A program made the translations under genes and the position numbers. From the NCBI GenBank assembly GCA_048937405.1, contig JBHLNF010000007.1:64001-128000 (forward strand): DNA of 64,000 nt, read 5' to 3'. Source of the DNA: Promethearchaeota archaeon (GTDB taxonomy: Archaea; Asgardarchaeota; Lokiarchaeia; Sigyniarchaeales; SOKP01). The notes under the pieces were generated by a model. That model worked only from the letters and a program-made list of their open reading frames with translations. It searched no databases and was not told the DNA's origin. Below are positions 39,548-63,700 of the stretch, piece by piece. Positions within the stretch are counted from its first letter, which is position 1; each line of letters opens with the position of its first letter.

Positions 39548-40540
39548 TTGACAATTGAAAAGATACTTCAAAAGCTTAACGTTTTATTCAAACAGGCTAA
39601 TTATGAAACATTGGCATTAGGTAATTTTGCAGAAAAAAAAAATAAATTCTGCTTTGATCTTTTAGTCAAAAAGGAGGATTTGGTATTTAGTGTAAAAATT
39701 TTCCCCAATATTGATAATTTAAATCCCAATATCATTCAGGATATCAAATCTTTATCAGCAATCCTCAAATCAAAACCATTATTAATTGGAATTAGGAATA
39801 GATATCAAAATTTAGAAGACAATACAATATATATAAGAGAAAATTTACCTTTTATTACTATTAATACATTTGAAAATATCCTTAATAGCAATTATCCTCA
39901 TATTTTAGCAAGAAGGGGTGGTAAGGTCGTATTTTTAGAGGGATCATTAATGAAAACATTAAGAGAAGATCACTCTATAACAAGAAAAGAACTTTCGGAT
40001 AAATTAGGGATAACGAAAAGAACTGTATGCGCATATGAAAATGAATCTATGAGACCTTCAGAGAAAATTGCAAAAAAAATATCAGAAATATTAGAAAATG
40101 ATGAACTTTTTAAAAAAATTAACATATTTGGATGGCCAATTAAAGTAGATATCAAAAATTTTGAAGAGGAGGAATTGACTGAATTCGAGATTCATGTTCA
40201 AAATATTGTTAAAGATATTGGATTATCTTCATATTGGTATAGAAAAGGTTCTATCCCATTCAAATTATCTCTATATTCTACTTCTGACAAAAAAGAATCA
40301 GAAGGATTTTATCCTCTCTTCTCTGCTATCTCAGAAGAACAAAATAAAATTAATGAAATGAGTTTTAAATGCCTTAAAATGTTCACAGATTTATTCCACA
40401 AAACCTCATTATTTATTATAAACAATGGAATAAAAATACCTGAAATCTTTCATAAAGATAAAATTCCTATTGTCAAAATTAAAAATTTGGAAAAAGTAGA
40501 TGATGAAGAGGAATTCATTGAACTCATCCAAGATTCATGA
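39548..40540 (+). CDS. Archaeal HTH regulator (COG1395-like)
   Basis: CFDLLVK, NIDN, ARRGG, TKRTVCAYEN HTH. Confidence 0.8.
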   Translation: MTIEKILQKLNVLFKQANYETLALGNFAEKKNKFCFDLLVKKEDLVFSVKIFPNIDNLNPNIIQDIKSLSAILKSKPLLIGIRNRYQNLEDNTIYIRENLPFITINTFENILNSNYPHILARRGGKVVFLEGSLMKTLREDHSITRKELSDKLGITKRTVCAYENESMRPSEKIAKKISEILENDELFKKINIFGWPIKVDIKNFEEEELTEFEIHVQNIVKDIGLSSYWYRKGSIPFKLSLYSTSDKKESEGFYPLFSAISEEQNKINEMSFKCLKMFTDLFHKTSLFIINNGIKIPEIFHKDKIPIVKIKNLEKVDDEEEFIELIQDS

Positions 40541-41245
40541 TGGTAGATCACAATTAATTTGTGGGATAGACGAGGCTGGCAGAATTTAATTCACTTCGAA
40601 TTTATGTTAAAAGGCTCTGTCTTAGGCCCAATGGTTATATGTGGTGTTTGTTTTACTAAATTAAATCTTGACACCCTTTCAGAAATTGGAGTCAAAGATT
40701 CAAAAAAGTTATCTCCTCAAAAAAGAAAAAATTTAGCTGAAATTATCAAAAAGAACTGTAATTCATATAAAATAATTGAGGTAACTGCTCAAGAGATTGA
40801 CGAGAGAGAACAAAAAAAAATTTCTCTGAACCGACTTGAGGAGCTTAAAATGGCTGAAATAGTTAATAACTTAAAACCTGATGTTATTTATATAGATGCT
40901 GCTGATGTCAATGAAAAAAGATTTGGAATATCAATAAAAAAATTATTAAATTATAATCCCAAAAACATCATTTCTAAACATAGAGCAGATGATATTTATC
41001 CTATCGTTTCTGCTGGTTCAATAATAGCTAAGGATAGAAGAGATTTCCTAATTGAAGAAATACATAAAAAATATGGAAATTTTGGTTCTGGTTACCCTTC
41101 GGATCCTAGAACGATCAAATTTCTAAGAGATTATATAAAAAAGTATAAAAAAGCTCCTGGAATTGCAAGAAAAACCTGGGATACTACAAAAAAAATAATA
41201 AATGAAGAAGTATCAAATAAGAAAATAACTGAGTTTTTTAGCTAG
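40518..41245 (+). CDS. rnhB: Ribonuclease HII, two exons: join(40518..40582,40612..41245), 232 aa
   Basis: Exon 1 ...LICGIDEAG(R) is in a different frame from exon 2 GSVLGPMV...VKDSKKL...DAAD...VSAGSIIAK...GSGYPSD, PIP box KITEFF; alternative starts at 40500 or 40503. Confidence 0.92.
40583..40611 (+). other. Putative 29-nt BHB-type mRNA intron in rnhB
   Basis: Central helix TGGC/GTTA, bulges AG|A and AA|A, intron stem AATTC/GAATT; removal gives GGC AGA GGC TCT (GRGS). Confidence 0.8.
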
Positions 41246-63381: not shown

Positions 63382-63420
63382 ATATATTATACCATATATT
63401 ACCGATTGAAAGCTATAATA

Positions 63421-63522
63421 CGCAGATGGAGGGACTCGAACCCCCGAGCGCTCACGCGCACCGGCTCACTCGGTTGTGAAAAACACTCAAGGCCGGCGTC
63501 TTACCAGCTAGGCTACATCTGC
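63421..63522 (-). tRNA. tRNA-Ser(UGA) with 19-nt canonical 37/38 intron (63467-63485)
   Basis: GCAGATG/CATCTGC acceptor stem, long variable arm; BHB with CTTG/CGAG helix, bulges AG|T and TG|A, intron stem GTT/AAC. Confidence 0.93.
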
Positions 63523-63700
63523 AATTATATAACCATAAATAAATTGTTCATAAATCGTAATTAATGGCTATTAAATTAGAGTATATTCTATAAAATAAAT
63601 TTTTTTCATTTTGTACTGCTTTTAAAACTATTTTCTTGCATTAGATAAAGAAAACTATAAATTTTATGCTACATTGACCTCTAATTGAGTTGGGTAAGAA

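What the first reader, a model, noticed from the sequence alone, without database searches (positions are those of the whole stretch)
40583..40611. 29-nt intron splitting the catalytic DEAGR|G motif of RNase HII
Seen: GAC GAG GCT GGC AG[AATTTAATTCACTTCGAATTTATGTTAAA]A GGC TCT GTC TTA GGC CCA. Unspliced, the frame stops almost at once (AGA ATT TAA). Fold: exon helix GACGAGGC/GGCTCTGTC (one mismatch, one bulge), central helix UGGC/GUUA (two G-U pairs), intron stem AAUUC/GAAUU. The rest of the gene, including the PIP box, is intact, arguing against decay. The ORF-track N-terminus MWDRRGWQ is an artefact lacking the catalytic D and E.
Basis: partly seen in the sequence, partly recalled or inferred. 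Interest (0 to 1): 0.88.

Follow-up and report, generated by a model that had tools for sequence, protein, structure and literature searches.

The report
tRNA-type mini-intron splits Asgard RNase HII
The only RNase HII (DNA-repair) gene of this Loki-type Asgard archaeon is broken inside its active-site motif by a 29-base insert shaped like an archaeal tRNA intron; 80 related species keep it at the same spot, so the messenger RNA is very probably cut and rejoined before translation, which the papers I could search confirm for only one other archaeal coding sequence (cbf5).

Summary
Confirmed. A 29-nt insert (40583-40611) sits in the Arg codon (AG|A) of the DEAGRG motif of the genome's single rnhB. 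Unspliced, the frame stops two codons later. Removing it at the bulge-helix-bulge (BHB) cut sites gives an intact 238-aa RNase HII. The insert is at the same site in 81 of 134 genomes of this Lokiarchaeia family (mostly 30 nt) and was not found in 265 other Asgard genomes. Related alleles without it differ by exactly the insert. Exon wobble bases covary with intron bases, and all 56 distinct inserts carry an in-frame stop. Read-through, ribosome hopping, internal restart and decay each fail a test. Two EndA subunits and RtcB are encoded. Four more genes of this genome carry 29-34-nt BHB inserts whose removal restores a conserved motif; cbf5 is intact. Weak points: there are no RNA data, and in this genome the BHB fold lies 3.3 kcal/mol above the best fold. 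I found no paper on it. This scan's own notes report the same rnhB intron on other genomes (about 30 notes).

The parts
40500..40582 (+). rnhB exon 1 (27 codons plus AG of the Arg codon); carries catalytic Asp (40569-71) and Glu (40572-74) and the first Gly of the GRG motif; overlaps the 3' end of the upstream HTH gene by 41 nt
   Evidence: intron-less relatives have the same N-terminus at the same distance, -69 nt from the Asp codon; the start codon itself is inferred
40583..40611 (+). 29-nt BHB intron; in-frame TAA at 40587-40589; stem 40588-40592 with 40598-40602; an ATG at 40604 in frame with exon 2 is not conserved
40577..40580 (+). exon strand of the 4-bp central helix (UGGC)
   Evidence: pairs with 40606-40609; 94% of cells paired in 38 sequences, compensatory G-C, C-G, U-A types
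40606..40609 (+). intron strand of the central helix (GUUA)
40581..40583 (+). 5' bulge AG^A (predicted cut after 40582)
   Evidence: BHB rule (cut after second bulge base); boundary fixed independently by intron-less alleles
40610..40612 (+). 3' bulge AA^A (predicted cut after 40611)
   Evidence: same as above
40569..40621 (+). exon-exon helix, 40569-40576 with 40613-40621 (one G-G mismatch, one bulge); can extend outward to about 40540/40660
40612..41245 (+). rnhB exon 2: last base of Arg, then 210 codons to the stop, ending in a PIP-box-like KKITEFFS
   Evidence: matches Pfam RNase_HII from profile position 9 to 199, E 1e-40; positions 1-8 are supplied by exon 1

Best explanation
The insert is a tRNA-type (BHB) intron in the rnhB mRNA. 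Shown in sequence: the insert, its exact boundaries, its conservation, the covarying helices, and the genes for the enzymes. Inferred: the pre-mRNA folds into exon helix, 3-nt bulge, 4-bp helix, 3-nt bulge and intron hairpin; the two-subunit splicing endonuclease EndA cuts after the second base of each bulge; RtcB joins the exons and rebuilds the Arg codon of DEAGRG; translation from 40500 then gives a 238-aa active RNase HII. Unspliced mRNA stops two codons into the intron, so no enzyme with a disrupted active site is made. History (inferred): most simply one gain early in this family, vertical descent, and about 8-10 exact losses; repeated gain at one site is not excluded. The intron is probably a tolerated passenger. 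A regulatory role (RNase HII output tied to splicing capacity) is possible but has no evidence.
For: Same site in 81 of 134 family genomes, 8 of 13 genera; lengths 28-31 nt, 52 of 56 distinct ones 30 nt. 31 distinct family alleles lack exactly the insert. Named structure on 38 sequences: 89% of cells paired against 24-44% for slid controls; 10 pairs with two-sided change against 3.5 in shuffles (0/500); central helix 94% paired; intron stem 7 of 9 pairs with two-sided change. The Gly wobble base pairs with its intron partner in 55 of 56 (U-G 29, G-C 12, C-G 10, U-A 4). Exon codons are skewed against the genome: Glu GAG 55/56 against 20% genome-wide; Gly GGA 0/56 against 48% genome-wide and 14/31 in intron-less alleles. 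Intron hairpin beats shuffles at p<=0.05 in 44 of 56; the BHB is the best fold or within 1 kcal/mol in several divergent genera. Stop in the exon-1 frame in 56/56 against 8 and 30 in the other frames; 11/11 among divergent inserts that lack the common stop, chance about 0.5 each. Single rnhB. D, E and GRG are essential or substrate-binding in RNase H2 (PMC3025331). Two EndA subunits and RtcB present. tRNA introns of 28-31 nt in the same genome (best-scoring removals).
Against: No RNA or protein data. In this genome the BHB is 3.3 kcal/mol above the minimum fold (median 4.5 over 56, up to 10.2) and RNAalifold does not return it as consensus. The central helix has only 3 of 4 pairs in 15 of 56. 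The structure was named from these same sequences, and kin are not independent, so the shuffle counts overstate. Two RNase HI-like (RVT_3) genes exist, so rnhB need not be essential.
Confidence: 0.9

Rival explanations
1. Ribosomal bypass (hopping) as in T4 gene 60: the ribosome takes off at the Arg codon, skips the stop-containing hairpin and lands at its end; no splicing.
For: A stop codon follows the take-off codon within a hairpin in most alleles; length is nearly fixed at 30 nt.
Against: Take-off and landing codons match in 1 of 56 alleles (AGA against AAA, ACA, ATA and others). Pairing of the intron with upstream exon bases that would be inside the ribosome covaries. Geometry fits the BHB cut rule to the base.
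Confidence: 0.03
2. Stop read-through or frameshift gives an enzyme with a 10-residue insertion; or exon 2 is translated alone from an internal ATG, with or without the exon-1 peptide as a separate chain.
For: 52 of 56 inserts are 30 nt (in frame); 30 of 56 have an ATG open to exon 2, including this genome.
Against: This genome (29 nt) and others (28, 29, 31 nt) are out of frame; stops are TAA, TGA or TAG at six different codon positions, and some alleles have two; 26 of 56 have no in-frame ATG. The insertion would split the GRG substrate-binding motif, and exon 2 alone lacks D and E, whose mutation abolishes activity (PMC3025331).
Confidence: 0.03
3. Dead gene or assembly artefact.
For: Two RNase HI-like genes could take over part of the work; the 29-nt length is a one-base loss in a T-run.
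Against: Exon 2 is open for about 210 codons at 63-82% identity across the genus; exon 1 keeps DEAG with synonymous variation; the insert is in independent assemblies of many studies.
Confidence: 0.02
4. The insert is removed from RNA, but by another route than EndA/RtcB, or it is a BHB cleavage site used mainly to destroy or regulate the mRNA, with ligation only as a minor path.
For: EndA processes a BHB in the 5' UTR of a Haloferax mRNA (PMC7714728); the fold is weak in this genome.
Against: The only rnhB must be rejoined to give enzyme; 29 nt is far too short for a group I or II ribozyme (established knowledge); ends are not GT-AG.
Confidence: 0.02

Closest known systems
BHB intron of cbf5 (pseudouridine synthase) pre-mRNA in Desulfurococcales and Sulfolobales (Watanabe 2002; Yokobori 2009, PMC2738675)
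   Same: Short BHB intron in a coding sequence, placed in the catalytic motif, must be removed to give enzyme; lineage-specific exact losses; two-subunit EndA in the host.
   Different: Other gene (rnhB), other phylum (Asgard); cbf5 is intact here; the cut is in the Arg codon of the GRG motif, not in the catalytic Asp codon; length nearly fixed at 30 nt with a stop always kept in frame; at least four other genes of the same genome look split the same way; splicing not shown experimentally.
BHB introns of archaeal tRNAs, including the heavily interrupted Asgard tRNAs (bioRxiv 10.64898/2026.10.13.758758)
   Same: Same motif, same predicted enzymes, same size class as several tRNA introns of this genome (28-31 nt).
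   Different: Host is an mRNA. The preprint covers tRNAs only ('mRNA' occurs 0 times). No sequence like the rnhB intron was found in a tRNA of this genome.
EndA-cut BHB in the 5' UTR of Haloferax HVO_1309 mRNA (PMC7714728)
   Same: EndA acting on an mRNA.
   Different: There it lies in an untranslated region; here it interrupts the reading frame.
Ribosomal bypass, T4 gene 60 type (own knowledge)
   Same: Stop codon in a hairpin inside a coding gap.
   Different: Needs matched take-off and landing codons; found in 1 of 56 alleles.

Membership tests
Archaeal BHB intron | 4-bp central helix between exon 1 and intron 3' end | tested here: met
   4/4 here (two G-U); 4/4 in 41 and 3/4 in 15 of 56 alleles; covariation
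Archaeal BHB intron | Two 3-nt bulges on opposite strands with boundaries after the second bulge base | tested here: met
   Boundaries fixed by intron-less alleles and motif restoration fall at these places
Archaeal BHB intron | Flanking exon helix (h) and intron helix (h') | tested here: met
   h 86.5% and h' 89.7% of cells paired; in this genome h' is weakened by a one-base loss
Archaeal BHB intron | BHB is a favoured fold of the RNA | tested here: inconclusive
   3.3 kcal/mol above minimum here, z -1.2; best or near-best fold in several relatives
Archaeal BHB intron | Host encodes EndA and RtcB | tested here: met
   Two tRNA_int_endo genes on C27 and C8, RtcB on C25; catalytic Tyr/His/Lys seen by eye only in the C27 subunit, so an (alpha-beta)2 type is inferred
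Archaeal BHB intron | Cut by EndA and ligated in the cell (spliced RNA, circular intron) | not testable with these tools
   No RNA run listed
Archaeal RNase HII | DEAGRG motif with D and E, later acidic residues, RNase_HII profile over full length | tested here: met
   Only after removal of the insert; exon 2 covers profile 9-199; an intron-less relative aligns to solved archaeal RNase HII from GIDEAGRGP on
Ribosomal bypass element | Matched take-off and landing codons | tested here: not met
   1 of 56
Mobile intron with homing endonuclease | Endonuclease gene in or beside the intron | tested here: not met
   29 nt hold no ORF; neighbours are HTH and fibrillarin genes in about 110 loci, no nuclease-sized extra ORF seen; a nuclease acting from elsewhere was not tested
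Group I, group II or spliceosomal intron | Ribozyme core or GT-AG ends | tested here: not met
   Ends AA..AA, 29 nt; no Rfam match at the site

The most novel reading that the evidence does not exclude
In this Asgard family tRNA-type splicing is a routine step of protein-gene expression: a class of about 30-nt BHB introns sits in conserved motifs of many mRNAs (rnhB, phosphofructokinase, HdrA, a B12 mutase and an AIR-synthase-family gene in this genome alone), is still being gained, is lost exactly, and is under selection to keep an in-frame stop so that unspliced mRNA gives no protein, a rule so far described for eukaryotic introns (own knowledge).
Probability: 0.65. Interest if true: 0.88.

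Novelty: new variant of a known kind. Interest (0 to 1): 0.76.

Why it matters
Papers in the searchable library name cbf5 as the only archaeal coding sequence with a confirmed BHB intron (PMC2738675, PMC7714728). A second, ancient, family-wide case in Asgard archaea, next to several more in the same genome, means that mRNA splicing occurs in the prokaryotes closest to eukaryotes, in cells without a nucleus where translation can start before splicing. That makes old questions testable: how introns enter and leave protein genes, and how a cell copes with unspliced mRNA. In practice, gene callers give a catalytically dead RNase HII for about 60% of this family, so gene-content and metabolism calls for these genomes need a second look.

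Tried and rejected
RNA evidence: no RNA holder listed; the four runs laid are DNA contigs and show no joint 40582-40612. The spliced junction pattern was not found in metagenome contigs, while the unspliced pattern gave 15 hits, all 30 nt; this says nothing on splicing. Single-sequence folding and RNAalifold do not single out the BHB. A genome-wide strict BHB scan with a mirror-image decoy showed no overall enrichment (6751 against 6858 raw; 5 against 2 at -8 kcal/mol or better); only candidates that restore a conserved motif were kept, and it missed the phosphofructokinase case. Two scan attempts timed out. Seven neighbouring genes checked in up to 111 loci showed no comparable insert. No second copy of the intron sequence in the genome, so no source was found. 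Motif checks for the mevalonate kinase, rpo10 and elf1 leads were inconclusive. The phylum search used a DNA pattern that needs G-P/S-V-x-G after the site, so 'not found' outside the family holds for that pattern only. The rnhB tree is a quick tree, as is the neighbour tree; neither can tell gain from loss. Tocchini-Valentini 2011 (PNAS) could not be read, so earlier predictions of archaeal mRNA introns there were not checked. Nine literature searches found no report of an rnhB intron or of Asgard mRNA introns; subscription journals are not covered.

Full report
Setting. The window is G000:C25:64001-128000 of a 4.47-Mb, 29% G+C genome. Named relatives of the gene lie in Promethearchaeota (Lokiarchaeia) MAGs, so the host is a Loki-type Asgard archaeon (inferred from those hits). 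The gene lies between an HTH regulator gene (39548-40540) and the convergent fibrillarin gene. It is the only RNase HII match in the genome.

Observation. Exon 1 reads from ATG 40500 to DEAG and AG; the unspliced frame stops at TAA 40587-40589. Removing 40583-40611 gives a 238-aa protein with GIDEAGRGSVLGP; no other 29-nt removal nearby does, apart from the sequence-equivalent shift by one base. Exon 2 matches Pfam RNase_HII from position 9, and solved archaeal RNase HII proteins read GIDEAGRGP at this place. The D, E and GRG residues are catalytic or bind the substrate 2'-OH (PMC3025331). The public collection holds the artefactual 228-aa product. A short-read contig of depth 54.7 carries the 29-nt form unchanged; that run may be the source sample.

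Relatives. A pattern search finds the insert at the same site in 81 of 134 genomes of the family, in 8 of 13 genera, and 49 of 53 in the genus; it finds none in 265 genomes of other families of the phylum (pattern-limited). Of 56 distinct inserts 52 are 30 nt, two 29, one 28 and one 31. Family members without the insert read straight through DEAGRG and differ by exactly the insert. On a tree of the two neighbouring genes the state changes 11 times, at least 9 forced by strong branches, with intron-less tips nested among carriers; the rnhB tree of a smaller set gives 5 changes. One early gain with exact losses is the simplest reading. Supporting hint: intron-less alleles still use GAG for Glu in 21 of 31 cases against 20% genome-wide. 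Repeated gain at a favoured site is not excluded.

Structure. With the boundaries fixed by intron-less alleles, the flanks form a canonical BHB: central helix 40577-40580 with 40606-40609, bulges AG^A and AA^A, an exon helix, and a 9-bp intron stem with a 5-nt loop in the 30-nt consensus. On 38 sequences 89% of cells pair (slid controls 24-44%), and 10 of 21 pairs show two-sided changes (shuffles 3.5, 0/500). The clearest signal joins exon and intron: the Gly wobble base is U, G or C and its intron partner follows in 55 of 56 alleles; GGA, the commonest Gly codon of the genome, never occurs there. The caveats are that kin are not independent and that the structure was named from these sequences. 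Thermodynamics alone is weak: here the BHB lies 3.3 kcal/mol above the best fold, while in several divergent genera it is the best fold or within 1 kcal/mol; RNAalifold returns only the exon helix and the tip of the stem.

An extra regularity. All 56 inserts carry a stop in the exon-1 frame, against 8 and 30 in the other frames. Among 11 divergent inserts without the common stop, all 11 have one elsewhere, with a shuffle chance of about 0.5 each; these form about 9 lineages, 6 of them in-frame 30-mers. This suggests selection against translating the unspliced RNA into an enzyme with a 10-residue insertion in its active site. It is a post hoc test on few lineages.

Machinery. Two EndA genes (C27, C8) and RtcB (C25, about 2.5 kb before the window) are present. 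Only the C27 protein shows the Tyr/His/Lys triad by eye, which fits an (alpha-beta)2 enzyme; that type cleaves non-canonical introns (PMC5829648 abstract). tRNA genes of this genome have introns of 28-31 nt among others. cbf5 is uninterrupted.

Rivals. Bypass needs matched codons (1 of 56). Read-through fails on out-of-frame lengths, double stops and three stop types. Internal restart fails because 26 of 56 lack the ATG and exon 2 lacks D and E. Decay fails on conservation of both exons. No homing-endonuclease gene was seen beside rnhB in about 110 loci.

Other genes of this genome. My strict scan ranked rnhB eighth; its top three hits were 29-, 31- and 34-nt inserts in an AIR-synthase-family gene (C7), a B12-mutase-like gene (C15) and an HdrA-like gene (C19), each giving a motif-like join (the mutase and HdrA names rest on my recognition of the motifs). 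For the C7 case 28 relatives carry exactly the joined sequence uninterrupted. A lead from earlier notes, phosphofructokinase at C25:149016, also checks out in sequence (31 nt, 4/4 central helix, ILTGGG-DCPGLN). The scan as a whole is not enriched over its decoy, so these rest on motif restoration. Seven neighbouring genes show no such inserts in up to 111 loci.

Known and new. It works like the cbf5 intron and meets every BHB-intron feature testable in sequence except fold stability; cutting and joining are untested. The searchable literature names cbf5 as the only confirmed case in an archaeal coding sequence and has nothing on rnhB or Asgard mRNAs; a 2026 preprint treats Asgard tRNA introns only. 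Earlier notes of this scan report the same rnhB intron in other genomes and further introns in this one; my reading was fixed before I opened them, and they are not independent evidence. Verdict: a real, conserved BHB mRNA intron (0.9), a new variant of the cbf5 kind because it belongs to a multi-gene set; interest 0.76.

Noticed in passing
window 63420-63523 (-): tRNA-Ser(TGA) with a probable 19-nt intron at about 63467-63485; missed by the plain tRNA scan, seen by Rfam and by removal tests.
   Followed up: partly
G000:C7:314151-314179 (-), L165: 29-nt perfect BHB insert (-19.9 kcal/mol) in an AIR-synthase-family gene; 28 relatives are uninterrupted at this site, so it looks like a recent gain.
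   Followed up: partly
G000:C15:3033-3063 (+); C19:207132-207165 (-); C25:149016-149046 (+): 31-, 34- and 31-nt BHB-shaped inserts in a B12-mutase-like gene, an HdrA-like gene and phosphofructokinase; removal restores conserved motifs.
   Followed up: partly
G000:C7:159429-159460 (-), L166: 32-nt BHB candidate near the start of a DUF354 gene; the Pfam match does not need the join, so it is doubtful.
   Followed up: partly
G000:C25:42600-61500: cbf5, intron-bearing tRNAs and rtcB lie within about 20 kb just before the window.
   Followed up: no
L080:2063-2503 (also L052, L081, L102, L103): One genus has an extra 146-aa gene without Pfam match between the HTH gene and rnhB.
   Followed up: partly
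window 40540-40660: The exon helix can extend to a long interrupted hairpin of about 120 nt (z -1.8), which may bring the splice sites together.
   Followed up: partly
L033, L034, L054, L059, L062: Contigs titled Thorarchaeota, Hodarchaeota, Odinarchaeota or an actinobacterium nest inside this Loki family on both trees, so these record titles look wrong.
   Followed up: no
G000:C1:14161-14490 and C16:104183-104512: Two RNase HI-like (RVT_3) genes.
   Followed up: no
window 40613-40618: The usual Pro after GRG is Ser in much of this genus, a change that strengthens the exon helix; an intron-less allele (G061) keeps Ser like its intron-bearing sister G060.
   Followed up: partly
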